A DNA stretch of 32,000 nt from Acaryochloris marina MBIC11017. GTDB lineage: Bacteria > Cyanobacteriota > Cyanobacteriia > Thermosynechococcales > Thermosynechococcaceae. Each line of letters starts with the position of its first letter. Within the stretch, counting starts at the first letter, position 1. A model generated the notes under the pieces. The model ran no database searches. It had not been told where the DNA came from and worked only from the letters and a program-made list of their open reading frames with translations. Below are positions 566 through 15,617 of this stretch, in pieces. A program made the position numbers and the translations under genes. The stretch covers positions 1 to 32,000 of the forward strand of contig NC_009929.1 in NCBI RefSeq assembly GCF_000018105.1. The letters run 5' to 3'.

Positions 566-853
566 ATGTCGATTTACGTTGGTAACCTTTCTTACGACGT
601 TACCCAAGATGAAATTCAGGCCGTGTTTGCTGAATATGGGGCCGTCTCTAACGTTCATGTTCCCAAAGACCGCGAGACTGGCAGAATGCGAGGATTTGCC
701 TTTGTTGAATTGGGCAACGATGCCGAAGAATCCAAGGCTATTGAAGAACTCGAAGGGGCTGAATGGATGGGGCGAACACTCAAAGTAAACAAGGCTAGAC
801 CTCGTGAGAACAATAGAGGTAATAACAACTTTAGTGGTCGAAACCGTTTTTAA
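566..853 (+). CDS. RRM-type RNA-binding protein (cyanobacterial Rbp family), 95 aa
   Basis: The internal ATG at 566 of ORF 449..853 gives MSIYVGNLSYDV... (RNP2) and RGFAFVEL (RNP1), the canonical RRM motifs. Length and the short Gly/Asn/Arg tail are typical of cyanobacterial Rbp proteins. A strong terminator follows. Confidence 0.9.
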   Translation: MSIYVGNLSYDVTQDEIQAVFAEYGAVSNVHVPKDRETGRMRGFAFVELGNDAEESKAIEELEGAEWMGRTLKVNKARPRENNRGNNNFSGRNRF

Positions 854-927: not shown

Positions 928-1215
928 TTAAGTTGCTCTCTCCAGCCACTCTTGCAATTGCTGTTGACCTCGTTCTCTCAATTGCTCTAGTATCTCTCTA
1001 GCGGCGATACTCTTCGCCAATTTCTTCTTCTTTGCTACCCCACTCCCTTCAAGCTGCTGACCTAAAACCGATAACTCACACTCGCAGATAAACCATTCAT
1101 CGGAACTGACCATTGTGTACACAGGGGTCTCCCATCTTAAGGTTTGACAAACATCAACCAGCATCCCGACAAAGTTCTGCCCCTCCTTAAGGGGCTTCAC
1201 CAATGCCGTATGCAT
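928..1215 (-). CDS. Stand-alone double-stranded-RNA-binding-domain (dsRBD) protein, module A
   Basis: NFVGMLVDVCQTLRWETPVY ... FICECELSV.G...EGSGVAKKKKLAKSIAAREILEQL fits the dsRBD alpha-beta-beta-beta-alpha pattern, including the G.G.KK.A...AA...L C-terminal signature. It lies directly downstream of the RNB gene on the same strand. Confidence 0.6.
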   Translation of the reverse strand: MHTALVKPLKEGQNFVGMLVDVCQTLRWETPVYTMVSSDEWFICECELSVLGQQLEGSGVAKKKKLAKSIAAREILEQLRERGQQQLQEWLERAT

Positions 1216-1330
1216 TGATTTGGATAAGGGTGCTGTTACTCGTTTTATGTCTTCATTACCAGACTTGAACTGCGGCTCAGGTAGTACTGGCTGTGCTCGT
1301 TGCTCTGGTGAGACTAAGCTGTGGTGGATT

Positions 1331-3244
1331 CTAAGCTTCTATCCATATCAAACAAGCGTGATGACGAGCGGGTTGTTTGCGGGAATGGGTAGCGGGATGA
1401 ATCGTCGTTAAAGTGTCTCCAGAAATTTTCACCTCTAGCCAAACATGGAATGGTGGTTTATTCTCCGCTTCTAGATATTTAAATGCTTCCCAGTTCCCTT
1501 CTCGATTGGAGGCAATGGTGATCACACTCGCCGCATCATGGATATGGCTAGACAGATACTGAATCACTTGCTGATGTAGCTCAAGTTCTTTGGACTGAAA
1601 GAGCAATAGGTAGAGATCCTGTACGGCTAATTGCTCAGCGTCTAACCGGTTCACAAGTTCACTGCGAAGGTGATCAACCCCCTGAGACTCAACCGCATAT
1701 TTCAGGAGTCGTGTGAATTCTTTCCCAGTGAGATTTGCTAAGTCTTCGGGGGTCTGAAGTTGCTCCTGGTAGACCTTTTGATGGGCTGCTTTGAAGAACT
1801 CCGAGGCCTGCTCTTTATGCTCATCCTTGACCTGGGCAATATGCTGTCCCAATTCCTCCAGCTCAGACTGGGTATAGGGTAGGTCTTGCTGCTTGAGGCG
1901 GGCTTTGACAATCCGATGGTTGATCAGGTCAGCGACTCTGCGAATCGGACTGGTGAAGTGGCAATAGGCAGGCAGGTTCAGGGCAAAATGCCCTATCAAG
2001 ACGGGACTATACACGGCCCGATTCATCCAACTGTGCAACCGTTGACGAATGGCTGCATTTGACCCTAACATCAACAACATTTGGTACATTGTTTCCCGAT
2101 CTGGGGCAATGGCTCTGGCGGTGTGATTCCGATACAGCGCTGGGATATCCTGATCGGCTAACCATTGAGCGACGGCGAGGTTCGCCAGGATCATAAATTC
2201 TTGAATGAGGATATGGCTTGGATGAAGTTTACCTTGGATAAGGCTGCCTTCTTCTGTGAGCCACTGGCCTTGAGCCGTCTGGGTCGCTCCAATTGAACCT
2301 GATGTCAGCCGATTTCGGTACAGATGGGAGGCCCATTGGTGAGCCATTTCCAGAGTGTTATGAAAAGGAGTAGATGATTTAGGCTGGGAGGCTTCAGCAT
2401 AGGTAAAGCGTTTGTGACTTACCAGCCAGGATTCAAAGATTTTGACGTCAACCATCTGGGCGTTCGGGTTGAGGGTAACCTGAACGGTAACGGTAGGTCG
2501 GGCTTCACCTTCCAGCAGGCTCAGCTTATTTTCGGACAGGGGTCTTGGCAGCATGGGTGCGTTCCCATTGCTGAAATAGCGTGTGACTGTGCGAGAGAGG
2601 GCTACCTTATCCAATATCGAGCCCATCTCCACGAGTTCGGAGACATCGGCAATATGTACGGAGAGGACTACCCCTGACTCAGTCGCTTCAATCCAGATAG
2701 CGTCATCCAGGTCTCGAGAAGTCGGTCCATCGATGGTGATGCCTTGAACTTGGGGACGTTCCCAGAGTTCATCAGCGAGGACAAGGCGCTTGGCTATTTT
2801 AATGACATCTGGGGAGAAACGGTTCTTGCTTTTGGGAGTCGTTTCAGTCTTTGCTGGTGGACTATCCTGAGTCAGTGGCTTAGGTTTCTCATCTTGCACC
2901 GCCGCTGTCGACTTTGCCTGTTCGATTGGTTTTTCCTGATCTAACGTTATGGGCTTTTTATGTTGAAGTACGCCTTCAGGCTTTGACTCCAGCTTTTGCG
3001 ATAAAGGGGGTTTCAGCGTTGTTCTTTCTTGCTGCAATGATTTCTGTTTGGCCTGCTTCTTGGAGTGCCTTAATGCAGCTTTTCGCTGGGCTATCTTGGA
3101 TGCTGTGGTCTTGGACTGGCCTGGGTCAAGCTGGGCTTCAAGTTTTTTAATTGCACTTTTGAGTACCTTGGCAGCAGTGGGGTTGCTGCATTGCTGGAGT
3201 TGAGAACGCAGTTGTGAAAGCTTTTCTAAAGTTGAAGAAGGCAT
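1331..3244 (-). CDS. RNase II/R-family (RNB domain) 3'-5' exoribonuclease with atypical N- and C-termini, module A
   Basis: RNB motif I ITIDGPTSRDLDDAIWIE and motif IV HFALNLPAYCHFTSPIRRVADLINHR are present. The N-terminal ~170 aa is coiled-coil plus K/Q/P-rich, with no recognisable cold-shock domains. The C-terminal ~70 aa (PPFHVWLEVKISGDTL...SRKQPARHHACLIWI) reads like a degenerate dsRBD (low confidence). Confidence 0.85.
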   Translation of the reverse strand: MPSSTLEKLSQLRSQLQQCSNPTAAKVLKSAIKKLEAQLDPGQSKTTASKIAQRKAALRHSKKQAKQKSLQQERTTLKPPLSQKLESKPEGVLQHKKPITLDQEKPIEQAKSTAAVQDEKPKPLTQDSPPAKTETTPKSKNRFSPDVIKIAKRLVLADELWERPQVQGITIDGPTSRDLDDAIWIEATESGVVLSVHIADVSELVEMGSILDKVALSRTVTRYFSNGNAPMLPRPLSENKLSLLEGEARPTVTVQVTLNPNAQMVDVKIFESWLVSHKRFTYAEASQPKSSTPFHNTLEMAHQWASHLYRNRLTSGSIGATQTAQGQWLTEEGSLIQGKLHPSHILIQEFMILANLAVAQWLADQDIPALYRNHTARAIAPDRETMYQMLLMLGSNAAIRQRLHSWMNRAVYSPVLIGHFALNLPAYCHFTSPIRRVADLINHRIVKARLKQQDLPYTQSELEELGQHIAQVKDEHKEQASEFFKAAHQKVYQEQLQTPEDLANLTGKEFTRLLKYAVESQGVDHLRSELVNRLDAEQLAVQDLYLLLFQSKELELHQQVIQYLSSHIHDAASVITIASNREGNWEAFKYLEAENKPPFHVWLEVKISGDTLTTIHPATHSRKQPARHHACLIWIEA

Positions 3245-3270
3245 GGGAGAGGAAAATCTCGCTAGGAGCA

Positions 3271-3297
3271 GACTTGCAGGTATTCTAATCTAGAGAA
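3271..3297. promoter_or_regulatory. Conserved 27-bp motif in the divergent promoter region of module A
   Basis: GACTTGCAGGTATTCTAATCTAGAGAA matches GACTTGCGGCCATTCTAGTGTAGAGAA at 10539-10565 at 22/27 positions (hand alignment). Both sit at the same relative position between the divergent genes. Confidence 0.4.
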
Positions 3298-3373
3298 GAA
3301 GGATTCCAGCAGAATCTAAGGGTCTGGCTATGACGAACCACTATCTAAGCCTAGCCCCATAATCAATGACATT

Positions 3374-3568
3374 ATGAACCACTGTGCTTTTCAGACCTCC
3401 CATCAAGCCAAAGATTTGCGGCATACCCAAGATGGTCAGGCCATCGCTGAATTTGTAGTCACTATTCCTCCATTACGAGAAGAAGATCCGCCCGAAAACC
3501 TCAAAGCAATTTACTGGGGTGAAAATGGAGAAACGCCCACCTTTCCCTACAACCTGGCGACCAACTGA
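3374..3568 (+). CDS. SSB-like OB-fold stub (64 aa), module A
   Basis: MNHCAFQ...LRHTQDGQAIAEFVV..PPLREEDPPENLKAIYWGENGE resembles the N-terminal half of bacterial/cyanobacterial SSB (LRYT..G.AVA.F.V ... LKVVGWG), then terminates. A paralog of similar length is at 10641..10832. Confidence 0.5.
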   Translation: MNHCAFQTSHQAKDLRHTQDGQAIAEFVVTIPPLREEDPPENLKAIYWGENGETPTFPYNLATN

Positions 3569-3922
3569 TTCTACAAGGGCAGCTCAAAATCACAAAAGTG
3601 ACACACTAGATGGGTGAAAAAGAATATGTTGAGCAACAGGCAAGTCTGATCGTAGAGAAGATTAACCGAATTCAACGTGCCAGTTAACGCAGCAATCTAT
3701 CGCAATCCTCAGTAATGCTATCTCAACAAGTGAAAGTGAAGCTTCGAGTAGCTCGGCCAATCTTGGAACCGTTGCTATTTACAAAGGGAATGATGATGAA
3801 ATCCTCCAGAAATGCCGAATGTAGCCCATTAATGATTAGATACAAAGGAAGTTAATTCTGGGAATGCTATACGTTAGCATTCTTAGTTTTGCTGAAATAA
3901 ATACACTGATCTACGACGAACT

Positions 3923-4714
3923 ATGGCCCCTGACAACAAATACTCCACAGTACTCCTTGAGTTAAAGACTCACTACCAGGAGACACTCGCTGAACTTGAA
4001 GCTCAAACGAGTCAACTCAAGACCAAAATCACGTCTCTGGATACGTTGATTGAAGATCCTTTGTTAGGTTCAGACATCCTTTCAATCCTTCAAGGTGAAG
4101 CAGATTCACTCACCTCACCAGAACCAGTTTCTAAAACTGCCGACACAGTAGAACTTAAAGCCAAGTCTAAGAAAGCTACTCCAAAAGCTGCTTCAAAGAA
4201 GAAGTCTACACCCCCTAAGAAGCCAGCTTCAACTGCAAAGACAAAGGAGAAAGTAAAACCGGAAGTTGACGCTGAAGCTACCCCAAAGAAAGCCGCTCAA
4301 AAAGCTTCGCCCTCATCCGGGAAGAGAAAATCCTCAACTTCCAAGAAAGCTGTATCTCAGGCAACAGCAAAGAAGAAAAGTCAGAAGAAAACAAGCAGCT
4401 CTTCATCCAGCGTTCTGACAATGAACAAGCCCTATGACCAGATGAAGAAAATTGATGCGATCACACAGATCATGCAGGAAAATCCTGGGAAAGTCATGCA
4501 TTACGATGATTTGATTGTGAGACTGTTTGGTGAACTAAGTAAAGATGATCAGAAAGCTGAGCGGGGTAGGATTAAAGCCGCCATGTACCAGGGGGCTAAA
4601 AATAATCTTTGGAAAAAAGCAAACGTACCAATGTGCTATATCTACGATCCAAGTCTAAAAGCTGAATCTAAAGCAACAACCTCAAAGACTCAAAAGTCTC
4701 GTAAAAAGACCTGA
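3923..4714 (+). CDS. Lys/Ala/Ser/Pro-rich (histone H1-like) protein with N-terminal coiled coil and C-terminal HARE-HTH-like domain
   Basis: The long KKA/KKS/PKK low-complexity core is seen directly. The C-terminal IDAITQIMQENPGKVMHYDDLIVRLFG...ERGRIKAAMYQGAKNNLWKKA resembles the HARE-HTH / RpoE-delta N-terminal domain pattern (from memory). Confidence 0.55.
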   Translation: MAPDNKYSTVLLELKTHYQETLAELEAQTSQLKTKITSLDTLIEDPLLGSDILSILQGEADSLTSPEPVSKTADTVELKAKSKKATPKAASKKKSTPPKKPASTAKTKEKVKPEVDAEATPKKAAQKASPSSGKRKSSTSKKAVSQATAKKKSQKKTSSSSSSVLTMNKPYDQMKKIDAITQIMQENPGKVMHYDDLIVRLFGELSKDDQKAERGRIKAAMYQGAKNNLWKKANVPMCYIYDPSLKAESKATTSKTQKSRKKT

Positions 4715-4746
4715 TGTCCGATCAGTAGAGTAAAGACGTTCAAGAT

Positions 4747-5028
4747 TCAAGCTGAAGCCATCATTCTTGAGATCAGGAATGATGGTGGAGCAAATAGAAA
4801 AATGCCTCTACCAATCTCCATTTGCTCTCCTGACAGCGCAAAAGTACTGCCAGCCAAGTAGTCTGTTAGCCTCTGAGCTAGCTTGGTTTCTAAAGCCGCC
4901 AAATTCACTAGGAGCATATCATCCGTTTTCATCGCGTTGATTGCTTCCTCAGCATCTTCAAATGACTTGGGGTGAAACACACGGATTTTATGGGGCGATA
5001 TTGCTTGAAAGGGAAGAAGATTGTTCAT
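4747..5028 (-). CDS. SepF-like (DUF552) domain protein, paralog A
   Basis: IRVFHPKSFEDAEEAINAMKTDDMLLVNLAALETKLAQRLTDYLAGSTFALSGEQMEIGRGIFLFAPPSF matches the SepF C-terminal domain pattern. The start at ATG 5028 (MNNLLPF) was chosen because GAGGAG lies ~9 nt upstream and paralog B starts MNNLVIF. The longest ORF extends to a GTG at 5229. Confidence 0.7.
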   Translation of the reverse strand: MNNLLPFQAISPHKIRVFHPKSFEDAEEAINAMKTDDMLLVNLAALETKLAQRLTDYLAGSTFALSGEQMEIGRGIFLFAPPSFLISRMMASA

Positions 5029-5273
5029 AAACCAGTGCTCCTCTGCGACCAAGTCCAGGCACATCCTCAGCGTTTCGTGAATACTCCAGGCAGTCTGTTG
5101 ATACATGCTCAAGCCTAGGATCTCACCTGATAGGTTACTCTCCATGACATCAGAGCCAGCGGAAAGTTCCAGCTCCACAGATTCTCTTGGAGTTCGCGGT
5201 TGACTGATCTGAAGGTTTTTTGAGGACACTGACTGAGGTAGTCCGTCCGGAATAGAGTTGAAAATTGAAGAAG

Positions 5274-6101
5274 TTATCTTTTTCGGGCAATGTGAAAGGC
5301 AGAAATGTTCAAGAGTTTGATGTGACCTGCAAAGTGATTGTCTATTTTCTTCTGCAATCCTACGAACAAGTCTTTCCTGCTTTTTTCATCTAACTCCAAG
5401 TATTGTGAAAAGGTACTCAACAGTGTCAAATATTCATCCACACTATATGAGGTCTCCCAAATAATCTGTTCGAAAACGATGCCTTCGAATTGATCTGAGG
5501 TAGCAACAATCTGTCCTAGTTCTCTCAATTCAGCCTCATGAGTTTCTCTGCCTTTGTAGTGAGACAGGGATGGAGCATGGATTTGATACACATCCTGTAA
5601 CACCTGATGGAACTCTCGATAAGGAATGGCTGGCACATTCCATAACAGTATGAGCACTCCATTATCCTGTAATGCATTGGCCACTTTAGGGTACGCAACT
5701 TCTGCCGGAATCCAATGAATCGAAGTTGCTGCTAAAACAGCGTTAAACGGCTTTGCTTCTGGTTTCCATTCCTCAAATGAGGTGTTTTTGATCTCGAGAT
5801 TTGGGTAGTGAGAACAATTTCTCCGAGCAATCTCGTAAAAGTCTGGGTTTGGCTCAAGACAGAGCATTGAAAAACCCAGGTTAGCAAACGAAACTGTTGC
5901 AGTTCCAGGGCCACAACCTATTTCAAGAATTCTCGACCCATTTTCAAGTTGAGTTAACTCGACAACTCGACTAATCAATGTATCAGGATAATGAGGTCGT
6001 GTTCTGTTGTAAGCCTCTGCTGCGGGAGAGTACCAAGTCTTTCTCTGTTTCAAGTCTTTGCTAGAGTACTGCTTGGTTGTTTGATCGTTATCTTTCACCA
6101 C
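5274..6101 (-). CDS. Class I SAM-dependent methyltransferase
   Basis: Motif I ILEIGCGPGTAT and a typical downstream acidic/hydrophobic pattern. GTG start, so the exact start is uncertain. Confidence 0.85.
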   Translation of the reverse strand: MVKDNDQTTKQYSSKDLKQRKTWYSPAAEAYNRTRPHYPDTLISRVVELTQLENGSRILEIGCGPGTATVSFANLGFSMLCLEPNPDFYEIARRNCSHYPNLEIKNTSFEEWKPEAKPFNAVLAATSIHWIPAEVAYPKVANALQDNGVLILLWNVPAIPYREFHQVLQDVYQIHAPSLSHYKGRETHEAELRELGQIVATSDQFEGIVFEQIIWETSYSVDEYLTLLSTFSQYLELDEKSRKDLFVGLQKKIDNHFAGHIKLLNISAFHIARKR

Positions 6102-6283
6102 TCAGCCTCAAACTCAAAATGCTCTCTGCCTATTCTGAAACTACATTCTAATAAATAGGATTAGATACCTAACCTTGGATATCTGTCGGTCAGCCAGGTT
6201 AAGGGGGTGAAGTCAACTCTCAAACAAATCATAATGAGACACTCAGATACCAATAACGGCAAAGAAAATATGTAGGTTAAATT

Positions 6284-6619
6284 GTGCGATCGCTTGTCCA
6301 AATCAACTCATTGACGGGGAACTATCTGGCTATCAATAGACTCAACTTCACCAACGCAGATAATAGAAGGTTTCTAATGACTGATTTCAAGCATAGACCT
6401 ACTAACTTAGGGCAGCACCTATGGAGTCCAAGGAATTTAGCTGAACAGACCCACGCTGCTGCTCAAAGCGCTGAACTACACTCCCGTAGTGTTGGACAAG
6501 CCAGTCTCTCCCAGAAATTACTGGATATCCAACGTCAATTATGTATCCTTCAACTAAGACTCAAAGATCCTGAAATTCAAGAGTGGACTGGAAAGCAAAT
6601 GCAGCTACCATTCAGATAA
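6284..6619 (+). CDS. Hypothetical protein (weak)
   Basis: ORF only. GTG start overlapping a HIP1 site, with an alternative ATG at 6377 (MTDFKH...). No recognisable domain. A weak hairpin plus T-run lies downstream at ~6680-6710. Confidence 0.25.
   Translation: MRSLVQINSLTGNYLAINRLNFTNADNRRFLMTDFKHRPTNLGQHLWSPRNLAEQTHAAAQSAELHSRSVGQASLSQKLLDIQRQLCILQLRLKDPEIQEWTGKQMQLPFR
6286..6293. repeat. HIP1 octamer GCGATCGC
   Basis: Exact palindromic octamer characteristic of many cyanobacterial genomes. A second copy is at 10707-10714. Confidence 0.6.
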
Positions 6620-6771
6620 AATGCTCAACTCTCCCAGATTCATACCTGTTCTTAACATTCAAATGCACCTCCATCTTTCATTCAGAATTACACTGAATTG
6701 AGGTTTTTTTCCTTGAAAGAGCAAGATACTCAACCCTACTAAGCAACTGAGAACCAGATAGGAAAGACCTT

Positions 6772-6990
6772 TTAACCCCAACACTCCGCTACCCGCTCCC
6801 ACTCAAACTCCGCCTGAACCCTCTCCCAGATCCGCTTCATCTCCTTCTGTGGACGAAGCTCAATCACTTGTAAAATCTCAAAGTTCTCTTCAATTTCGAC
6901 GGCGCACTCAAATCAAACCCCCGGTGTAGCAAACGATTCCCTCACGAAAGGCTTCCCCGTTCTCTTCACCAAAACTATTATTGCCCTAAG
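6772..6990 (-). pseudogene. Remnant copy of the C-terminal domain of the 7940..8554 gene, with an in-frame TGA
   Basis: The minus-strand translation IIVLVKRTGKPFVRESFATPGV*FECAVEIEENFEILQVIELRPQKEMKRIWERV...CWG* aligns in frame with LITVAGTGKPFVRNTFATPEFCWECAVEIEENFEIGEVIELRPPETMERIGEMV...VWG*. The TGA at 6913-6915 replaces the Cys codon. The frame is closed upstream at 6991-6993. Confidence 0.6.
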
Positions 6991-7036
6991 TTATTCTTGG
7001 AGATGGTCAGCGTCTCTAACTCGCTTCGACATCCAT

Positions 7037-7780
7037 CTAGTTAGGAGATTGTTCGCATTTCAGTGTATAACCTACCCCTCGAATCGTATGGATAAGTTCG
7101 GTTCCAACCTGATTGGCTTTGAGCTTATTCCGTAGGCGAGACACATGGACATCAACTACTCGCGAGTCAACGATGGTCCCATTACTATATCCCCACACTT
7201 TCTCTAACAACTCTTGACGAGACACTACTGCTCCAGGGGTACTTGCCAATAGTTCTAACAGACTAAATTCCATGTGGGTTAGGATGATACGTTCTTGACC
7301 TCTGAAGACCTTCCGCTTGTTGGTGTCAATCCGGAGTGAACCGATGTTTAGCACTCCGGTAACTCGATAATTAAAAGGCTTTAGAGAACCCATTCGGCGT
7401 ATGATGCATCGCACTCGTGATTCTAATTCCTTAGGTGAAAAGGGCTTGACCATGTAATCATCTGCACCCATTTCTAAGCCAGTAACCCGATCTCCTACCT
7501 CAGAAAGTGCCGTCAGCATAATGATCGGAACTCTCGAGGTCTTGCGGATGGCCCGACAGACACCATACCCATCCAGTCTGGGCATCATAACATCTAAAAC
7601 AATCAAATCAGGGTGCTGACGATCAAAGATTTCTAATGCTTCTACGCCGTCAGCAGCAGTGAAGACGTGATAGCCCATCATGGATAGCCTAGTGTCTAAA
7701 ATTCGTCGAATCGGCCCTTCATCATCAACTACCAAGATAGAATGCTGCTTATTGCTCTGATTATTCATGAATTCAGGCAT
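7037..7780 (-). CDS. OmpR-family response regulator (RpaB-like), orphan
   Basis: Receiver domain ILVVDDE...DLIVLDVMMPRLDGYGVC...VPIIMLTA...GADDYMVKPFSPKELESR, plus a winged-helix C-terminus (VVDVHVSRLRNKL...IHTIRGVGY). No histidine kinase is adjacent. Confidence 0.95.
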   Translation of the reverse strand: MPEFMNNQSNKQHSILVVDDEGPIRRILDTRLSMMGYHVFTAADGVEALEIFDRQHPDLIVLDVMMPRLDGYGVCRAIRKTSRVPIIMLTALSEVGDRVTGLEMGADDYMVKPFSPKELESRVRCIIRRMGSLKPFNYRVTGVLNIGSLRIDTNKRKVFRGQERIILTHMEFSLLELLASTPGAVVSRQELLEKVWGYSNGTIVDSRVVDVHVSRLRNKLKANQVGTELIHTIRGVGYTLKCEQSPN

Positions 7781-7939
7781 CTTTGGCTACGCTTTAGTTC
7801 AACGTAGCATTTATACCTAAGTAATAATGCTTAAGACGCTTGATAGAAATGATTCTTATGATTAGGTCATTTTCGAGAGAAATTGCCTAGTCTACTGCTT
7901 CGGCATTTGCCCAAAACTCAACTCACTCCCAAACTCAAC

Positions 7940-8554
7940 TCACCCCCAAACCCTCGTCACTCTCTCCCGCTCCAACCACACTCCGACCATCTCCCCAATC
8001 CGCTCCATCGTCTCCGGTGGCCTTAGCTCAATCACTTCCCCAATCTCAAAGTTCTCCTCAATTTCAACAGCGCACTCCCAACAGAACTCCGGCGTAGCAA
8101 ACGTATTCCTCACGAAAGGCTTCCCCGTCCCTGCCACCGTAATCAAGTACTCCTCAGACTCATTCTTGGAAACAGCCAGATACTCCAGCTCCCCTCGCGT
8201 CCTGGTCTGCTCAACCAAATTCTTCTGTTTCAGCTCCAGATTCTTGAATCGCCGCTCCAGCTCTGCCGACACTCTAGGGGTTCTCGGTTGACTAGTCTGG
8301 GCAGCTTCTGAGGTCTGGGTCTTGGGAGAGTACTCAGGTTTGGCTGATCGGTGAGTTCGCCTAGAACTCCGGCGTAGTCCTCCCAGCTCCTCATGCCCTT
8401 GTTCTAGCTTGGCTGGCCGGGTTCCTTCCGGTGTTTTCTTAGGAAATGCTGTCCTACTAACCAGTTTGGGCAAGGAAGGGACGGACTTAGGTAGTTGTGG
8501 GATGATGGTCTTGGGTACAAGCTTGGGGTTGAGGGCAACGATTGGGGGAGTCAT
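7940..8554 (-). CDS. Hypothetical protein (Pro/Lys-rich N-terminus, conserved C-terminal domain)
   Basis: 204-aa ORF downstream of SepF-like B. Its C-terminal ~75 aa is duplicated as the remnant at 6772..6990. Its SQPRTPRVSAELE segment recurs upstream of SepF-like A. Confidence 0.55.
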   Translation of the reverse strand: MTPPIVALNPKLVPKTIIPQLPKSVPSLPKLVSRTAFPKKTPEGTRPAKLEQGHEELGGLRRSSRRTHRSAKPEYSPKTQTSEAAQTSQPRTPRVSAELERRFKNLELKQKNLVEQTRTRGELEYLAVSKNESEEYLITVAGTGKPFVRNTFATPEFCWECAVEIEENFEIGEVIELRPPETMERIGEMVGVWLERERVTRVWG

Positions 8555-8581
8555 TGGGGAATCCTCAAATGCACTAAAGTC

Positions 8582-8860
8582 TCAATACTTGGATTGTTTC
8601 ACAATTGGAAAAGTTTGAGGAGCAAACAGATAAACACCATTTCCTATTTCTGTATATTCACCACATAAAGAGTTAGTACAACCTGCAAGATAATCACTTA
8701 TTCTCTGGGCCGATTTTGGAGATAGATTTTCTAAATTGACGAGTAGCAGTTGTCCGTTCTTCAGGCAATGTGCCGCTTCTTTAGCCTCCCTAAAAGAACT
8801 CGGATTCGACAAATATATTTCAGATGAAGATTGTCCTGGGAATATGACTAAATTGTTCAC
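8582..8860 (-). CDS. SepF-like (DUF552) domain protein, paralog B
   Basis: IYLSNPSSFREAKEAAHCLKNGQLLLVNLENLSPKSAQRISDYLAGCTNSLCGEYTEIGNGVYLFAPQTF fits the SepF domain. GTG start (a stop lies 3 codons upstream). Confidence 0.75.
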   Translation of the reverse strand: MNNLVIFPGQSSSEIYLSNPSSFREAKEAAHCLKNGQLLLVNLENLSPKSAQRISDYLAGCTNSLCGEYTEIGNGVYLFAPQTFPIVKQSKY

Positions 8861-8972
8861 AGAATGATGCTATTACTTGCTCAGAGGTATGTCTTAATTC
8901 TTCCATGAAGGAATTTGCTTTTCTTTAATCGAAAAATAAGTTTAATGTTCACATCACTTCAAAATCGCATCC

Positions 8973-9446
8973 TTAGCCTTTAGAGGGTGAAATGTGACAT
9001 AGACCTTCCTCTGCTCTCTTCAACAACATCTCCGCAGCCCCCATCTTCGCTTTCTTCTTCGATGCTCCCTAGCCTACTCCCTGTAATCCCATCGACTGCA
9101 CTAAACAACGAAACCCTTCTGATATCTCTGAAAACTCGTACCTGGGCAACGATATTTGCTGTTTCTGGCAAAGCTCTTGCAATTGTCCAATCGGATTCTC
9201 CACCTGTTCATCAACCTGGCTGTTGGGTTGATCAGGGGAGGTCTCAGGTTGCTCGGCTTCTTCCTGGCGTGGATGTAAGATATGTACCTGCTGTTCGGCC
9301 TTGCGGATAGCTCGGTTCCTAGCCCGTTCAAGGAGCCTGATCAAAGCATCTTCTGGATCATCATTGGGGTACAAATAGTCGAGAAATCCAAGCTGCTCTT
9401 CGGTTAGTAGAACGTTTAGGCTGAGGGAAGGTCGAGATTCAATCAT
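8973..9446 (-). pseudogene. dsRBD protein of module B, interrupted by an in-frame TAG (9069-9071)
   Basis: The ORF ends ...NPIGQLQELCQKQQISLPRYEFSEISEGFRCLVQSMGLQGVG-TAG. The same frame continues GASKKKAKMGAAEMLLKRAEEGLCHISPSKG-TAA, which completes a textbook dsRBD (G.G.G.SKK.AK..AA..L). The ATG overlaps the upstream stop (ATGA at 9443-9446). Confidence 0.65.
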
Positions 9447-10519
9447 ACCTGGAGAGTGGAAGACTCCAATTTAGAAAGGACTTGGTCGATGATGTTCTGA
9501 TCTTTGATTTCTGGATCAGTGATTTCCTGGTCAGTGGATTCAGTAGCGTTACTCTTAGGCGTTGAACGTTCTCCAACAGCCACAACCTTGACGGTAACGC
9601 CATCTCTATGGCAGATGAACTCATAGAGCTTTCCATCCTTGAGCGTCTCCAGGCAGTCCTCACTCACGAGCGGGGAATGCTGGCGGATATGAATCTCTGG
9701 GTCGCGCTCCTGATCCCGCTGTATCAAAACCCTTTGCTTATCTGCTCTCCATACTCCGATCAATACCCAGTTCTCTGTCTTTGCTGATGCCCGTTGCGAG
9801 GTACCTGTTAACTGCAAAGATGTAATCTGACCATTCATGATATTGGGATAACCAAACACCATGATTGGTTTGTCTAAAACTGACTTGACTTTCTTAAAGC
9901 TCTTCTTCGATAGGAAGAGTTTGATGGGTTGTCCATCAACTTCCACAAAATACAGAGACTTTGTTCTCCCATCGTCAAACTCCTTCTCTCGTACTCGAAT
10001 AATTCCGGGAATTCGGCACCAAGCCCGATGAGTGCCATTTCCAGGGAGCAGTGGAGGTTTCTCGGAAAGTTCACCTGATTTTGACTTTGATGTTGTCTTT
10101 TCTTGTTTTTGATTTTTTGAATTTGAATTCTTACTGTTAGGAGTGTCTACAGTCTTAACATGCGGCTTTTCCTGGGCTGGATTTGGGAGCTTCTTGCTCT
10201 GAGAGATTACTTCAGGTTTTGGCTCTATTTTGTTGAGTGAAGGGGGTTTCAACGTTGTTCTTTGTTTTTGTGATGCCTTCTGCCTAGATTTCCTCTCTGA
10301 TTTCTTGTGTGCAGCTTTCCGCTGAGCTACCTTGAAAGAATTCGTGTTAGTTGTCTTTAACTGGTCTATCTTGGATAACTCGATCTGGTCCTGGCCTAAG
10401 TTGAGCTGGGCTTCAAGCTTTGCAATCGTACTCTTGAGTAGCTTGGCAGCAGTGGGGTTAATACAATCCTGAAGCTGCCTTTTAAGCTGGTTCAGCTTAT
10501 CGATAGATGCAGAGGGCAT
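9443..10519 (-). CDS. Module B protein sharing the module A N-terminus but carrying a different (unknown, beta-rich) C-terminal domain
   Basis: MPSASIDKLNQLKRQLQDCINPTAAKLLKSTIAKLEAQL...RTTLKPP aligns with MPSSTLEKLSQLRSQLQQCSNPTAAKVLKSAIKKLEAQL...RTTLKPP of the RNB protein. There is an 18-nt identity CTTGGCAGCAGTGGGGTT (3167-3184 / 10442-10459). No RNB motifs are present. GGGAGG SD upstream. Confidence 0.75.
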   Translation of the reverse strand: MPSASIDKLNQLKRQLQDCINPTAAKLLKSTIAKLEAQLNLGQDQIELSKIDQLKTTNTNSFKVAQRKAAHKKSERKSRQKASQKQRTTLKPPSLNKIEPKPEVISQSKKLPNPAQEKPHVKTVDTPNSKNSNSKNQKQEKTTSKSKSGELSEKPPLLPGNGTHRAWCRIPGIIRVREKEFDDGRTKSLYFVEVDGQPIKLFLSKKSFKKVKSVLDKPIMVFGYPNIMNGQITSLQLTGTSQRASAKTENWVLIGVWRADKQRVLIQRDQERDPEIHIRQHSPLVSEDCLETLKDGKLYEFICHRDGVTVKVVAVGERSTPKSNATESTDQEITDPEIKDQNIIDQVLSKLESSTLQV

Positions 10520-10538
10520 GAGAACCTCCCTGGGATCG

Positions 10539-10565
10539 GACTTGCGGCCATTCTAGTGTAGAGAA
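10539..10565. promoter_or_regulatory. Conserved 27-bp motif in the divergent promoter region of module B
   Basis: GACTTGCGGCCATTCTAGTGTAGAGAA, 22/27 identical to 3271-3297. Confidence 0.4.
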
Positions 10566-10640
10566 TTGGGTTTTGGGGAAAGTAAAAGTTTTTTCCACGA
10601 ATCGTTACTGGCCTTTAATCTAGCCTTAAGATCAGAAATT

Positions 10641-10832
10641 ATGAATCACTTCGCTATACAAGGAATACTCCTAGAGAGATCCCTGCGATATACCCAGGAA
10701 AGACGTGCGATCGCTGAGTTTGTTGTTGAAATTAACCCTCTGAGGGAAGAAGACCCCAAGGAAAATCTCAAGGCCATCTATTGGGGAGAGAATGGGGAGA
10801 AAGCACACAATGCATTGCATACCTTAGGATAA
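10641..10832 (+). CDS. SSB-like OB-fold stub (63 aa), module B
   Basis: The ATG at 10641 gives MNHFAIQG...LRYTQERRAIAEFVVEINPLREEDPKENLKAIYWGENGE, a paralog of 3374..3568 with the same start context (ATTATGAAYCAC) and near-identical length. Confidence 0.5.
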   Translation: MNHFAIQGILLERSLRYTQERRAIAEFVVEINPLREEDPKENLKAIYWGENGEKAHNALHTLG

Positions 10833-10965: not shown

Positions 10966-11001
10966 AGAGAACTATTATTAAGTATTCAATAATAGTTCTC
11001 T
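10966..11001. repeat. Perfect 14-bp-stem hairpin at the left edge of the AT-rich island
   Basis: AGAGAACTATTATT (10966-10979) / AATAATAGTTCTCT (10988-11001), 8-nt loop. It lies immediately 3' of the minus-strand GNAT-like gene and may be its terminator, but there is no clear U-tract. Confidence 0.4.
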
Positions 11002-11013
11002 ATTATAATTGCA

Positions 11014-11559
11014 CTATTTTCTCCACAAAATATTTACGATATTAGTAAGCTCTCCTTTTGTTCCAGATAAAAATAAACCACAGGCTTTCAAACCTAGGGC
11101 ACGATGAAAGTTCTCAGATGCATGATTTCTTAGAGGACTCACAGCTGTTGCTGTAAGTGCAGTTAACCCATCAAAATTTAGAAATACGTCATCGTATAAT
11201 GCTTTTGCATATCCCATTCGCATGAATTCAGCTTTAACGGCTATTTTTGCAATCCAATAGCAATTATCTACATTTGGGTATAATTGCTCTGAATCAAACC
11301 AAATGAGAGATTCGTTATTAATTAGTAATCTACTTAAGATCTGATGCTTTGGAGGAACAACCATTACAAATCCTACTAGATTAGAATCTTGAGATAAAAC
11401 TTTTATATAGCCTGTATCATGTAAATCTTCATAAACCTTAAATGAGGCTCCGGGTAGAAAAAAACCTTTTGCATTAGCATCTTCAGAATTAGAAGGAAAA
11501 GACTTTTCTAATTCATAGCAAAAATTCAGTTCTTCAAATGATGGTGTGTAGATTTTCAT
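11014..11559 (-). CDS. GNAT-like acetyltransferase-fold protein (weak)
   Basis: Start taken at ATG 11559 (MKIYTPSFEEL...). The segment IAKIAVKAEFMRMGYAKALYDDVF resembles the GNAT motif A region. The longer ORF (to 11718) overlaps the upstream GNAT gene and was rejected. Confidence 0.5.
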   Translation of the reverse strand: MKIYTPSFEELNFCYELEKSFPSNSEDANAKGFFLPGASFKVYEDLHDTGYIKVLSQDSNLVGFVMVVPPKHQILSRLLINNESLIWFDSEQLYPNVDNCYWIAKIAVKAEFMRMGYAKALYDDVFLNFDGLTALTATAVSPLRNHASENFHRALGLKACGLFLSGTKGELTNIVNILWRK

Positions 11560-12232
11560 TATTACTATGGCTAGTCTTAAAAAATTCTCTAACCATCTTA
11601 ACTGACAATCCGGCATTGCCATTAATAAATTGGTTAGATGCCTCTCTCCATCCCATTTTCTTATAAAAACCTGAAGATTGAACTCTACAATTACACCAAA
11701 TATGTCTAAGTTGCTCATCTTTTTCTAAATCGGAAATCATAAAGTCAATTATCTTTCGACCTATTCCTTTAGATCTCCATTCAGGTGCTGTAGCCATTGC
11801 TCTTAGCTGCCAAGCTAGGAATCCATTCCAATATGACTGAATTAAAGAAACACAGCAAATATTATTTTCTTGTCTATCAAAAGCACCATAATGTCTACTT
11901 TGATAATCGTGATCTTCATTGAACATAACTTCAGTGATTGGATACCCATTTCTTAATACTTGATGCCTTAATTTAAGAATTGAGCCTACATCAGTTTTTT
12001 TGAAGTCAATTTCATTAGCTTGATGTTTTATTATTAGCCTATCATCTTTAACTAGCTGCTCGAATGTAAATGGTTCTTTTTTATATGTAAGGCGACTAAT
12101 TCCTGTTATTCTTGATAAAGTTTCAATATAGTCTTCTTGTCGAATAAGCTGATGGATTACACATCTTAGGATAGTGGGATTTTCTAGTATTGATAACCAA
12201 GCATCTCTAATCAATATTGATAAAGCCTGCAT
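11534..12232 (-). CDS. GNAT N-acetyltransferase domain protein; probable C-terminal part of an IS-split gene
   Basis: WQLRAMATAPEWRSKGIGRKIIDFMI...CNCRVQSSGFYKKMGW is a GNAT acetyl-CoA-binding motif (R/Q-x-x-G-x-G/A). The ATG at 12230-12232 abuts the IS target duplication. Confidence 0.7.
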   Translation of the reverse strand: MQALSILIRDAWLSILENPTILRCVIHQLIRQEDYIETLSRITGISRLTYKKEPFTFEQLVKDDRLIIKHQANEIDFKKTDVGSILKLRHQVLRNGYPITEVMFNEDHDYQSRHYGAFDRQENNICCVSLIQSYWNGFLAWQLRAMATAPEWRSKGIGRKIIDFMISDLEKDEQLRHIWCNCRVQSSGFYKKMGWREASNQFINGNAGLSVKMVREFFKTSHSNNENLHTII

Positions 12233-15293: not shown

Positions 15294-15617
15294 ATGTCTA
15301 TTCACAGATATGATTTGCAACTCACTGAAAACCTTTCAATTTCCAAAATAAAAATAGATCAGGAGATTCAAGTACTATCTAAATCGAATGATGCTGTAAT
15401 ATCAGAGTTCGCAGAAGCTATGCGAAAAGGGGCTGACTTTCCACCTATCACAGTTTTCTACGATGGTTCTGAATATTGGCTGGCTGACGGATTTAGTCGT
15501 ATAAAAGCCAAAGAAGCAAACGGAGACAGTTATATACTAGCTGAGGTGGAGTTTGGCTCCCGTCATGAAGCGAAACTTTATGCTGTTGTAACTAACACGA
15601 ATCAAAAATCGAATTAG
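15294..15617 (+). CDS. Truncated ParB N-terminal-domain paralog
   Basis: AEAMRKGADFPPITVFYDGSEYWLADGFSRIKAKEANGDSYILAEV aligns with AQDMKQGATFPPVIVYFDGEEYWLADGFHRVRAKEAIGETSVTAEV of 16057..17118. The DGxHR His is replaced by Ser, and the ORF stops after ~107 aa. Confidence 0.55.
   Translation: MSIHRYDLQLTENLSISKIKIDQEIQVLSKSNDAVISEFAEAMRKGADFPPITVFYDGSEYWLADGFSRIKAKEANGDSYILAEVEFGSRHEAKLYAVVTNTNQKSN

What the first reader, a model, noticed from the sequence alone, without database searches (positions are those of the whole stretch)
928..10832. Two paralogous nucleic-acid modules (SSB-stub <> shared-N-terminus effector > dsRBD) about 7 kb apart: candidate undescribed system
Seen directly: both loci have the same layout.
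- A 63-64 aa SSB-like stub gene lies on the + strand.
- A ~120-130 bp divergent intergenic region carries a 27-bp motif conserved at 22/27 positions (3271-3297 vs 10539-10565).
- On the - strand there is a protein with a homologous ~100 aa N-terminus (MPS..(L/I).KL.QL..QLQ.C.NPTAAK.LKS.I.KLEAQL ... RTTLKPP), including an 18-nt identical stretch.
- A small dsRBD protein follows it.
The effector domain after the shared N-terminus differs between the copies: an RNB exoribonuclease in A, and an unrelated beta-rich domain in B. SepF-like genes accompany both loci.
A shared adaptor N-terminus with swapped catalytic or binding domains, a dsRNA binder and an ssDNA-binder fragment is the modular pattern seen in defence or plasmid-competition systems. 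I know of no described system with this composition. Any function (RNA surveillance, antisense-RNA or copy-number control, anti-phage) is inference only.
Basis: partly seen in the sequence, partly recalled or inferred. Interest (0 to 1): 0.85.

Follow-up and report, generated by a model that had tools for sequence, protein, structure and literature searches.

The report
Shared gene-start cassette on decaying plasmid paralogs
Two neighbouring genes on an Acaryochloris plasmid, an RNA-degrading enzyme and a predicted strand-binding protein, share the same promoter, leader and first ~120 amino acids through recombination, but the supposed three-gene "system" is mostly broken gene copies, and nothing found links it to defence.

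Summary
The window is an Acaryochloris-type plasmid.

**Confirmed**
- The shared N-terminus (BLASTP 1e-28).
- The 22/27 motif and the 18-nt identity.
- The RNB domain and both SepF genes.

- The two "SSB stubs" are remnants of a 104-aa SSB-like gene, which is damaged in nearly every related plasmid copy.
- The "small dsRBD protein" of locus A is the C-terminus of a frameshifted 767-aa RNB-dsRBD gene.
- The dsRBD gene of locus B carries a nonsense codon.
- The "beta-rich domain" is a tandem OB fold (AF2 pLDDT 94). Its best structural match is Deinococcus SSB. It belongs to an unnamed cyanobacterial family.
- The 27-bp motif is the promoter (-10 TAGAAT) and leader of the N-terminus gene. It sits upstream of the start codon in all 11 upstream regions aligned, whatever gene lies upstream.

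**How the shared start arose**
- The hairpin N-terminus is ancestral to the OB family and was captured by plasmid RNB paralogs.
- The 5' cassette is still exchanged by recombination.

**Other tests**
- The module proteins have no PADLOC hits.
- The RNB type is usually not next to an SSB gene.

**Verdict:** this is a real, lineage-restricted, uncharacterised paralog neighbourhood, and I found no evidence that it is a defined system. Interest is moderate to low.

The parts
569..853 (+). RRM-type RNA-binding protein (Rbp), convergent with the RNB gene. The listed ORF starts at 449; the likely true start is MSIYVGNL at 569.
   Evidence: Pfam RRM_1 2.7e-19 (one search was for other proteins; this hit is). 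The same convergent Rbp follows every short B-type gene and the RNB gene in L008.
928..3244 (-). RNB-dsRBD exoribonuclease gene carrying the shared N-terminal cassette, disrupted by a +1 frameshift at about 1320-1334. As a result it reads as two ORFs, 1331-3244 and 928-1215.
   Evidence: tblastn of P0024 (767 aa) matches aa 1-633 in frame -2 and aa 638-767 in frame -3. Sequence of the junction. Pfam RNB 7e-70 and dsrm 3.3e-7.
1892..2740 (-). RNB catalytic domain (aa 169-451). The Asp motif DGPTSRDLDD and the motif TSPIRRVADLINHR are both present.
   Evidence: Pfam PF00773, 236 bits. The motifs were read directly from the translation.
2888..3244 (-). Shared N-terminal region of locus A. It comprises a helical hairpin (aa 1-45) and a basic disordered linker running to RTTLKPP and aa ~119.
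   Evidence: BLASTP 1e-28 against locus B. Mosaic origin: aa 1-120 are 86-93% identical to P0027, whereas the body is 97% identical to P0024.
3271..3297 (-). Conserved promoter and leader element of the N-terminus gene, locus A. The -10 box TAGAAT is at 3287-3282, followed by GCAAGTC.
   Evidence: TAGAAT is invariant in all 11 aligned upstream regions. The longer pattern has 2 hits in the window against 0 expected, and 10 exact copies in the fetched loci.
3374..3684 (+). SSB-like pseudogene A. It has a frameshift after codon 53 and an in-frame TAG at 3607-3609.
   Evidence: tblastn of the intact 104-aa SSB-like protein matches aa 1-53 in frame 2 and aa 39-104 in frame 1, with a stop in the second piece. 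Sequence.
3923..4714 (+). Lysine-rich 263-aa protein of unknown family. It is a recurrent member of the neighbourhood.
   Evidence: No Pfam or NCBIfam family. Homologues lie beside B-type or SSB genes in L001, L002, L004, L010, L016 and L017.
4747..5229 (-). SepF-like gene (160 aa).
   Evidence: Pfam SepF 1.1e-19, 70.8 bits.
7037..7780 (-). RpaB-type response regulator paralog, last gene of the locus-B minus-strand gene string.
   Evidence: NCBIfam ResRegRpaBCyano 9.4e-111, 368.7 bits against a cut-off of 330.
7940..8554 (-). 204-aa protein of unknown family, a recurrent member of the neighbourhood. A fragment copy lies at 6775-6978.
   Evidence: No family hit. Homologues and fragments occur in most related loci. 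Direct repeat D1.
8582..8860 (-). SepF-like gene (92 aa).
   Evidence: Pfam SepF 1e-19, 71 bits.
8976..9446 (-). dsRBD gene of locus B. It is 157 aa in relatives and is interrupted here by a nonsense codon at 9069-9071, inside the dsRBD.
   Evidence: tblastn of the intact pREC2 protein gives 95% identity in one frame, with '*' at residue 126. The intact relative passes the Pfam dsrm cut-off (25.3 bits against 23, aa 85-143). The window ORF does not.
9443..10519 (-). Intact gene of locus B. It comprises an N-terminal hairpin (10391-10519), a disordered basic linker and a tandem OB-fold domain (9566-10063).
   Evidence: AF2 domain model: pLDDT 93.6, pTM 0.84, with two b1-b2-b3-a-b4-b5 units. Foldseek best hit: Deinococcus SSB 3udg_A, E 3.4e-4, TMq 0.54. 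dN/dS is 0.03-0.29 for the N-terminus and 0.08-0.23 for the OB domain.
10539..10565 (-). Conserved promoter and leader element of the N-terminus gene, locus B. The -10 box TAGAAT is at 10555-10550. GGGAGG lies just upstream of the ATG.
10641..10832 (+). SSB-like 5' remnant B. Homology runs only to codon ~60 (10820), then AT-rich unrelated DNA begins.
   Evidence: tblastn matches aa 1-59/60 only. GC drops to 0.33 in 11001-12000.

Best explanation
The two loci are paralogous pieces of a gene neighbourhood that recurs on Acaryochloris plasmids. They are not a self-contained three-gene system.

**What is shared.** The loci share a portable 5' cassette with three parts:
- a promoter (-10 TAGAAT with a conserved upstream CAAAnCC) and a short leader (GCAAGTC..., then a GAGG-like Shine-Dalgarno);
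- a 45-aa helical hairpin;
- a basic disordered linker.

**Locus B.** The cassette carries its ancestral body, a tandem OB-fold domain of an unnamed cyanobacterial family. I infer that it binds single-stranded nucleic acid. The hairpin probably acts as an oligomerisation or docking element, in the way Deinococcus-type two-OB SSBs work as dimers.

**Locus A.** The same cassette has been captured by a plasmid paralog of the widespread cyanobacterial RNB-dsRBD 3'-5' exoribonuclease. That family lacks the cold-shock and S1 OB domains of RNase II/R.

**How the similarity is kept.** Recombination and gene conversion inside the cassette keep it similar between paralogs and move it, together with flanking DNA such as the SSB-like gene, between loci. 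That is why the two loci look alike.

**Likely consequence (inferred).** The cassette gives common transcriptional control. It may also bring a strand binder and an exoribonuclease to a common assembly or location. This would fit a neighbourhood dominated by RNA-binding proteins (RRM Rbp, dsRBD protein).

**State in this window.** The neighbourhood is largely decayed. Both SSB-like copies, the locus-B dsRBD gene and the RNB-dsRBD gene carry disabling lesions. Only the tandem-OB gene is intact.
For: **Shown**
- N-terminal homology: E=1e-28.
- Promoter and leader:
  - TAGAAT and the leader are conserved in all 11 aligned upstream regions, 5 RNB-type and 6 OB-type. This holds whether the upstream gene is SSB, GNAT, a K-rich protein gene or ParA/RHH.
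  - The motif occurs twice in the window against 0 expected. It has 10 exact copies in the fetched loci, those checked lying about 30-40 nt before the ATG.
- Tandem OB fold: pLDDT 93.6. The best PDB matches are tandem-OB SSBs of Deinococcus and Thermus, followed by other OB-fold ssDNA binders.
- OB family beyond Acaryochloris: a profile search finds 23 relatives sharing the GNGxHxA, YP, WxxGxW and VQR motifs.
- Direction of capture: the hairpin is also present in the two most divergent OB homologues (hhalign 84% and 71%). RNB-dsrm proteins of about 640 aa without it are abundant in cyanobacteria. Capture was therefore from the OB family to the RNB gene.
- Recombination:
  - The window RNB body is 97% identical to P0024, but aa 1-120 are 86-93% identical to P0027, whose body is only 75% identical.
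  - P0021 joins an A-type hairpin to a B-type linker.
  - dS of the N-terminus is far below dS of the OB domain in several pairs, for example 0.08 against 2.3.
- Purifying selection acts on the hairpin and on the OB domain.
- Lesions.
- Recurrent but reshuffled neighbourhood.
- Published work describes Acaryochloris plasmids as rich in duplicated and recombinant paralogs (PMC3156569, PMC11086944).
Against: - No experiment or complex prediction shows that the hairpin oligomerises, or that the OB protein and the RNase interact.
- Whether the target is ssDNA or ssRNA is undecided.
- The fold match to SSBs is moderate (TMq 0.54, 9-10% identity).
- The frameshifts could be assembly errors. The nonsense codon and the truncation are less likely to be.
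- The -10 box assignment rests on consensus and conservation only. The generic promoter scan did not list it, because the -35 region is non-canonical.
- Conservation of the B-type, dsRBD, SepF, hyp204, RpaB string in three plasmids could reflect recent common descent (94-97% DNA identity) rather than functional linkage.
Confidence: 0.6

Rival explanations
1. Plasmid DNA-maintenance role. The tandem-OB protein, originally together with the small SSB-like protein, is a plasmid-specific ssDNA-binding factor used in replication, partition or conjugative entry. The RNB paralog merely borrowed its promoter and N-terminus.
For: - The fold is most similar to ssDNA-binding SSBs.
- A divergent SSB-like gene or remnant lies upstream in 7-9 loci.
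- ParB-like genes lie 4-6 kb upstream in the window, L001, L003 and L016.
- ParA plus a small gene sit directly upstream in L007.
- OB-family homologues sit beside parA/parB on both plasmids of Cyanobacterium sp. HL-69.
- The window also carries a primase-like 1174-aa candidate Rep.
Against: - Several OB-family members are chromosomal, lying next to ycf66 and housekeeping genes.
- The SSB-like partner is decaying nearly everywhere, so it is not required.
- The most constant neighbours are RNA-binding proteins: an RRM Rbp in every short-form locus and a dsRBD protein within 5 kb in 9 of 10 loci.
- The protein has no acidic SSB tail.
Confidence: 0.2
2. This is an undescribed defence or plasmid-competition system, built from an adaptor N-terminus with swappable effectors plus dsRNA-binding and ssDNA-binding accessory proteins.
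For: - The N-terminus sits on two unrelated bodies.
- The family is lineage-restricted and plasmid-borne: 23 hits among 5.8 billion proteins.
- Mobile-element and conflict-type genes are nearby, for example an EAD4-domain protein at 13608-15005.
- The neighbouring methyltransferase hits the PADLOC model mad2.
Against: - Only two body types carry the N-terminus in all searches.
- No module protein hits PADLOC.
- The components are not co-inherited as a unit.
- The accessory genes are pseudogenes, here and in sister plasmids.
- The RNB-dsRBD body is a housekeeping-type cyanobacterial enzyme.
- Several copies occur per genome on different plasmids, the pattern published for Acaryochloris housekeeping paralogs (PMC3156569).
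Confidence: 0.07
3. Inert relics. Both loci in this window are non-functional leftovers of duplication, and any apparent organisation is only shared descent.
For: - Four of the six genes are disrupted.
- Fragments of hyp204 and of the SSB-like gene are scattered through related plasmids.
- The window is 94-97% identical to pREC2/pREC3 over locus B, so descent is recent.
Against: - The tandem-OB gene is intact and its family is under purifying selection, with dN/dS 0.03-0.29 for the hairpin and 0.08-0.23 for the OB domain.
- The promoter and leader are conserved across deeply diverged copies.
- RNB-type genes with the N-terminus are intact in at least 10 relatives at 62-87% identity.
- The RNB catalytic motifs are intact here.
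Confidence: 0.13

Closest known systems
Cyanobacterial RNB-family exoribonucleases (RNase II-like Sll1290 and Alr1240; second paralogs such as Sll1910), reviewed in PMC10989914
   Same: - It has an RNB catalytic domain with intact Asp and Arg motifs.
- Its closest relatives lacking the N-terminus are 60-66% identical cyanobacterial RNB+dsrm proteins of about 640 aa.
- It is expected to be a 3'-5' hydrolytic exoribonuclease.
   Different: - It has no cold-shock or S1 OB domains, and its NCBIfam RNase R / RNase II scores are far below the cut-offs (217 against 598; 118 against 642).
- It carries C-terminal dsRBD(s).
- It has a ~140-aa N-terminal extension found only in Acaryochloris, on plasmids wherever the replicon is known.
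- This copy is frameshifted.
Deinococcus-Thermus two-OB-fold SSB (PDB 3udg, 2ihf, 2fxq, 2cwa)
   Same: - It has two OB folds in one chain.
- These SSBs are its best structural matches (E 3.4e-4, TMq 0.54).
- It probably works as a dimer presenting four OB folds.
   Different: - Sequence identity is only 9-10%, and there is no SSB Pfam hit.
- It has no acidic C-terminal tip.
- It has an N-terminal hairpin and a long basic linker instead.
- It has its own invariant motifs (GNGxHxA, YP, WxxGxW, VQR).
- Its substrate is unknown.
Naturally truncated OB-only SSB-like proteins of Anabaena (Alr0088; Alr7579), PMC3976300
   Same: - The intact 104-aa relative of the 'stubs' is OB-only, with no P/G-rich region and no acidic tail.
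- It is weakly SSB-like (NCBIfam ssb 6.5e-4; PHROG SSB 2.4e-4).
   Different: - The window copies are broken fragments of 53-60 codons.
- The family is repeatedly pseudogenised in Acaryochloris plasmids.
- No biochemistry is available.
Acaryochloris plasmid-borne paralog expansion, with recombinant paralogs (PMC3156569, PMC11086944)
   Same: - There are multiple copies of housekeeping-type genes (recA, rpaB/ycf27 and others) on pREB-type plasmids.
- Recombinant paralogs are documented, for example ycf27 C0101.
- The same neighbourhood here contains RpaB, SepF, RecA, RecD and PBP1A paralogs.
   Different: Those papers do not mention ribonuclease, single-strand or SepF genes by those names (term searches of the main text). 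I therefore found no earlier description there of the shared 5' cassette, the tandem-OB family or the RNB fusion.

Membership tests
RNB exoribonuclease superfamily (RNase II/R) | RNB catalytic domain (Pfam PF00773) with a conserved Asp cluster and an Arg-containing motif | tested here: met
   PF00773 at 236 bits against a cut-off of 29.3. DGPTSRDLDD and TSPIRRVADLINHR are read in the translation. The residue roles come from established E. coli RNase II knowledge.
RNase II / RNase R proper (equivalogs) | Full architecture of CSD1-CSD2-RNB-S1, with a score above the NCBIfam equivalog cut-off | tested here: not met
   TIGR02063 scores 217 bits against 598, and TIGR02062 scores 118 against 642. 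Only the RNB core aligns, and there is no CSD or S1 hit.
Cyanobacterial RNB+dsrm proteins | RNB and a C-terminal dsRBD in one polypeptide | tested here: not met
   Relatives are single proteins (P0024 and more than 60 others carry PF00773+PF00035). In the window the reading frame breaks at about 1320-1334. The ancestry is met, but the intact architecture is not.
Bacterial SSB (PF00436 / TIGR00621) | Complete OB domain scoring above the family cut-off | tested here: not met
   Window copy B scores 15.6 bits against 26, and copy A has no hit. The intact 104-aa relative scores 20.1 bits against 53.95. The window copies stop at codon 53-60.
Bacterial SSB (PF00436 / TIGR00621) | C-terminal acidic tip preceded by a P/G-rich linker | tested here: not met
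   The intact relative ends ...EKINRIQRAS.
dsRBD (PF00035) | Complete alpha-beta-beta-beta-alpha dsRBD scoring above the cut-off | tested here: met
   This applies to locus A, ORF 928-1215: 31.2 bits against 23. For locus B it is not met in the window, where a stop at codon 126 leaves only a 14-bit partial hit. The intact relative scores 25.3 bits against 23.
SepF (PF04472) | SepF domain scoring above the cut-off | tested here: met
   70.8 and 71 bits against a cut-off of 27. A role in division was not tested.
Deinococcus-Thermus type tandem-OB SSB | Two OB folds per chain | tested here: met
   The AF2 model (pLDDT 93.6) shows two b1-b2-b3-a-b4-b5 units.
Deinococcus-Thermus type tandem-OB SSB | Detectable sequence homology to SSB and ssDNA binding | tested here: inconclusive
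   Foldseek gives E 3.4e-4, TMq 0.54 and 9% identity. There is no PDB sequence hit and no SSB Pfam hit. Binding cannot be tested with these tools.
Known anti-phage defence systems (PADLOC-DB 2.0) | Any component matching a defence-system model | tested here: not met
   There are no hits for RNB-dsRBD, the OB protein, SSB-like, dsRBD, the K-rich protein, SepF, hyp204 or Rbp. Only the unrelated methyltransferase at 5274-6101 hits mad2.
Conserved multi-gene system (operational definition) | Components co-localised across independent genomes | tested here: inconclusive
   OB gene with dsRBD gene: within about 5 kb in 9 of 10 flanked loci. OB gene with Rbp: all short-form loci. SSB-like gene: mostly remnants. 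RNB-type gene: usually behind a GNAT gene, with no SSB. All of these lie within one genus.

The most novel reading that the evidence does not exclude
The 45-aa hairpin may be a dedicated docking module that assembles a plasmid-encoded RNA-handling complex.
- In this reading, the tandem-OB protein supplies in trans the single-strand-binding OB folds that the RNB-dsRBD exoribonuclease lacks. In canonical RNase II/R, those folds are provided by the CSD and S1 domains.
- The dsRBD and RRM proteins of the same neighbourhood would act as further subunits.
- The result would be a split, modular RNase II-like machine, perhaps used for antisense-RNA or copy-number control of Acaryochloris plasmids.
Probability: 0.12. 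Interest if true: 0.6.

Novelty: new variant of a known kind. Interest (0 to 1): 0.33.

Why it matters
If the reading holds, this is a clear bacterial example of one block, comprising promoter, leader and N-terminal domain, being captured by an unrelated enzyme and then kept similar by recombination among plasmid paralogs.

It also flags two uncharacterised protein units:
- a cyanobacterial tandem-OB family with invariant GNGxH, YP, WxxGxW and VQR motifs, which has no Pfam or NCBIfam model;
- a 45-aa hairpin under strong purifying selection.

Both could be tested cheaply with binding assays and complex prediction.

The result does not open a new class of defence system. For annotation, it warns that the small 'SSB' and 'dsRBD' ORFs here are gene fragments.

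Tried and rejected
- **Family searches on the OB protein and N-terminus.** Pfam, NCBIfam, PHROGs and PADLOC gave nothing.
- **PDB sequence search with the OB profile.** It returned only a chance hit at E 0.62.
- **First AF2 run on the full-length protein.** pLDDT was 56 and the Foldseek hits were all weak. A rerun on the domain with a broader alignment gave pLDDT 93.6.
- **Search for a third effector on the same N-terminus.**
  - tblastn against plasmids found only the two known architectures.
  - The genome-contig scan returned 2 loci, both Acaryochloris, one of each known architecture.
  - A profile search of 5.8 billion proteins returned only 3 short fragments.
- **The look-up of encoding contigs.** P0012, P0024 and P0153 were not on record.
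- **Idea that the OB family is strictly plasmid- or par-associated.** It was weakened by chromosomal homologues next to ycf66.
- **Guess that the N-terminus of the locus-B dsRBD protein is a ribbon-helix-helix.** There is no Pfam support, so it is left as unknown.
- **Rfam.** No RNA family was found anywhere in the window.
- **Generic sigma-70 scan.** It did not pick up the conserved TAGAAT element and found no excess of promoter-like sites.
- **Literature.** I found no description of this module. The two Acaryochloris duplication papers do not mention ribonuclease, single-strand or SepF genes by those names, and no supplements are held.

Full report
**Source and setting.**
Megablast of 900-11000 hits only Acaryochloris plasmids. 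The best matches are A. marina MBIC10699 pREC2 at 94% and pREC3 at 97%. The rest of the window fits a large plasmid backbone:
- ParB-like genes at 15294-15617 and 16057-17118;
- a primase-like 1174-aa protein;
- a sigma factor and an M23 peptidase;
- a DDE transposase.

**Checking the observation.**
The sequence-level claims hold.
- The two minus-strand proteins share their first ~119 residues (BLASTP 1e-28, 50% identity).
- The 27-bp element matches at 22 of 27 positions.
- Its core, TAGAATNNCNGCAAGTC, occurs exactly twice in 32 kb, with none expected.
- An 18-nt identical run lies in the N-terminal coding region.
- Pfam confirms RNB (7e-70), a dsRBD in ORF 928-1215 (3.3e-7) and two SepF genes (1e-19 each).
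- The two SSB-like ORFs are 70% identical to each other.

**Three of the described 'genes' are fragments.**
1. *dsRBD of locus A.* The closest RNB relatives are single proteins of 753-784 aa carrying both RNB and dsrm domains. P0024 (767 aa) aligns to the window as aa 1-633 in frame -2 and aa 638-767 in frame -3. The break falls in the conserved linker EAY(L/I)Q..LVSP, where the window has one extra base. The 'small dsRBD protein' of locus A is therefore the tail of a frameshifted RNB-dsRBD gene.
2. *SSB 'stubs'.* An intact 104-aa SSB-like gene exists in A. marina S15 and in 'Moss Beach' plasmids.
   - Window copy A matches it to codon 53. It then continues out of frame and contains a TAG.
   - Window copy B matches only to codon ~60, where AT-rich DNA begins.
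   - Sister plasmids show independent damage. pREC3a has a nonsense codon and pREC3b a frameshifted C-terminus. pREC2 has lost its start codon and is truncated.
   - Further fragments lie in L010 and L016.
3. *dsRBD of locus B.* The gene is 95% identical, in a single frame, to the 157-aa pREC2 protein, but has a stop at codon 126. That stop falls inside the dsRBD, which Pfam places at residues 85-143 of the intact relative.

**What the 'beta-rich' body is.**
- The OB-type protein has only 23 relatives among 5.8 billion clustered proteins. All named ones are Acaryochloris or Acaryochloridaceae. It has no Pfam or NCBIfam model.
- An exhaustive profile search with the C-terminal domain found 23 representatives, including remote homologues at E 1e-10 to 1e-3. 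They share invariant N-G-x-H, Y-P, W..G and Q(R) positions.
- With that broader alignment, AlphaFold gives a confident model (pLDDT 93.6, pTM 0.84). It consists of two consecutive b1-b2-b3-helix-b4-b5 units, which is a tandem OB fold.
- Foldseek places it nearest the two-OB SSBs of Deinococcus (3udg_A, E 3.4e-4, TMq 0.54) and Thermus. Other OB-fold single-strand binders follow. The viral library gives the same picture.
- The full-length model adds an N-terminal helical hairpin (residues 3-54) and a disordered basic linker.

**What the 27-bp motif is.**
I aligned the 150 nt upstream of 11 cassette-bearing genes, 5 RNB-type and 6 OB-type, from six plasmids and two MAGs.
- The alignment shows an invariant TAGAAT, a conserved CAAAnCC about 20 nt upstream, GCAAGTC just downstream, and a GAGG-type ribosome-binding site before the ATG.
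- This holds whatever gene lies upstream: an SSB remnant, a GNAT gene (pREC1, pMB02), a K-rich protein gene (pMB01) or ParA plus a small gene (L007).
- The motif is therefore most simply the core promoter and leader of the N-terminus gene, not a shared operator of a divergent SSB pair. This is an inference from consensus and conservation; no TSS data were available.

**Origin and dynamics of the shared N-terminus.**
- The hairpin is also detectable in the two most divergent OB-family members, P0146 and P0147 (hhalign 71-84%, 46-47% identity over 35 residues).
- Meanwhile, many cyanobacterial RNB-dsrm proteins of about 640 aa start directly at the RNB domain.
- So the cassette is ancestral to the OB family and was captured by Acaryochloris RNB paralogs, on plasmids wherever the replicon is known.
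- Exchange continues:
  - The window's RNB body is 97% identical to P0024. Its first 120 residues are 86-93% identical to P0027, whose body is only 75% identical.
  - P0021 joins an A-type hairpin to a B-type linker.
  - Synonymous divergence of the hairpin is far lower than that of the OB domain in several paralog pairs, for example 0.08 against 2.3.
- Both the hairpin (dN/dS 0.03-0.29) and the OB domain (0.08-0.23) are under purifying selection. The linker is relaxed (0.2-0.67, in pairs with measurable dS).

**Is it a co-inherited system?**
A tblastn map of 14 reference proteins over all fetched loci, together with the annotations, shows a recurrent but reshuffled kit on Acaryochloris plasmids. 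The kit comprises the cassette::tandem-OB gene, an RRM Rbp, a dsRBD protein, the 204-aa and K-rich proteins, SepF, RpaB, the SSB-like gene and ParB.
- Long OB forms are followed by dsRBD, SepF, hyp204 and RpaB. This applies to the window, pREC2 and pREC3, which are 94-97% identical and therefore recently related.
- Short OB forms are always convergent with Rbp, with a dsRBD gene 1-5 kb away.
- RNB-type genes usually sit in the arrangement PBP1A-RecD-RecA <> hyp-GNAT > RNB, with no SSB.
- The locus-A layout in the window is therefore a local recombinant, not a conserved arrangement.
- No module protein hits PADLOC.

**Wider family context.**
- OB-family homologues lie beside parA/parB on both plasmids of Cyanobacterium sp. 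HL-69.
- Related metagenomic and Logan contigs place others in chromosomal-looking contexts next to ycf66. Most of those carry an N-terminal region similar to that of the HL-69 proteins, which has only a weak Ada-like Zn-finger resemblance (Pfam E 0.03).
- The OB domain is therefore a general cyanobacterial module with interchangeable N-termini. It is not plasmid-specific.

**Mechanism, with its basis.**
- *Shown:* the shared promoter, leader and N-terminal cassette; the tandem OB fold; an RNB core with intact catalytic motifs; recombination of the cassette; decay of the SSB-like and dsRBD genes.
- *Inferred:*
  - The OB body binds single-stranded nucleic acid. This rests on fold analogy to SSBs.
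  - The hairpin mediates oligomerisation or docking. This rests on its being a short helical hairpin under strong constraint and retained on two bodies.
  - The cassette gives common regulation and possibly co-assembly of binder and exoribonuclease.
- The RNA-heavy neighbourhood (RRM, dsRBD, RNB-dsRBD) tilts me towards RNA. The SSB-like neighbour and the nearby par genes keep a DNA-maintenance role alive as the main rival.
- Cyanobacterial plasmid copy number is known to be controlled through antisense RNA and RNase E (PMC9978351, listed; see also PMC10899382). That makes an RNA-level plasmid function conceivable, but it was not tested here.

**Comparison with what is known, and novelty.**
- The parts belong to known kinds: the RNB superfamily, dsRBD, SepF, and OB-only SSB-like proteins comparable to Anabaena Alr0088 and Alr7579 (PMC3976300).
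- They fail the stricter tests for RNase II/R and for canonical SSB (see the membership table).
- Gene duplication and recombinant paralogs on Acaryochloris plasmids are published (PMC3156569, PMC11086944).
- I found no earlier description of the shared cassette, of its capture by an RNB gene, or of the tandem-OB family. I rate it a new variant of a known kind.

**Verdict.**
The loci are real paralogs with an evolutionarily interesting shared 5' cassette and one uncharacterised, probably nucleic-acid-binding, protein family. The proposed SSB-stub, effector and dsRBD system is an appearance created by pseudogene fragments, a split fusion gene and segmental recombination. Interest is 0.33.

Noticed in passing
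window 13608-15005 (-): A 465-aa protein has a strong Pfam 'Effector-associated domain 4' hit (EAD4, 2.8e-37). It lies in a low-GC stretch (GC 0.32-0.39), next to a DDE transposase (12250-13563) and two overlapping GNAT ORFs (11014-12232). This is a more plausible conflict-system component than the finding itself. The stretch is probably a recent insertion, and the same AT-rich DNA cuts off SSB-like copy B.
   Followed up: partly
window 5274-6101 (-): A class I SAM-dependent methyltransferase hits the PADLOC model mad2 (mads_2) at 3.6e-19 over its methyltransferase core. No other MADS components were looked for.
   Followed up: no
window 17788-21312 (+), 15294-15617 (+) and 16057-17118 (+): A 1174-aa protein has an N-terminal Cys cluster and a weak PHROG DNA-primase hit (3.8e-4). 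It sits downstream of two ParB-N-like genes. It may be the plasmid replication initiator of the CyRepA/CyRepX kind reported for A. marina plasmids (PMC10899382), but homology to CyRepA was not tested.
   Followed up: partly
window 6775-6978 (-) against 7943-8128 (-): A 185-nt direct repeat (76% identity) is a stray C-terminal fragment of the 204-aa unknown protein, lying downstream of the RpaB paralog. Similar hyp204 fragments are scattered in L001, L002, L010 and L017. This points to frequent partial duplication in this backbone.
   Followed up: partly
L013, L020, L024 (also L019, L022): Homologues of the tandem-OB domain in Cyanobacterium/Geminocystis-like contigs carry a different N-terminus. 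It is similar to that of the HL-69 plasmid proteins and has only a weak Ada-like Cys-rich Zn-finger resemblance (Pfam E 0.03). In L013, L020 and L024 the gene sits divergently from a Ycf66-like gene, and the surrounding genes look chromosomal. The OB module thus pairs with at least two N-terminal domains in different lineages.
   Followed up: partly
L014 6542-7981 and L015 2950-4110 (Cyanobacterium sp. HL-69 plasmids pCHL69-1 and pCHL69-2): Both plasmids of this strain carry a tandem-OB family gene within about 0.6-1.3 kb of their parA/parB genes.
   Followed up: partly
window 3923-4714 (+) and 7940-8554 (-): Two proteins have no family hit in Pfam, NCBIfam, PADLOC or PHROGs: a lysine-rich 263-aa protein and a 204-aa protein. 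They recur beside the cassette-bearing genes on most related plasmids. Their function is unknown.
   Followed up: partly
window 27144-30236 (+): A 1030-aa ORF has no Pfam hit at 1e-3. Related plasmids are typed conjugative (MOBF, MPF_T) by PLSDB. It may be a divergent conjugation ATPase, but this was not tested.
   Followed up: no
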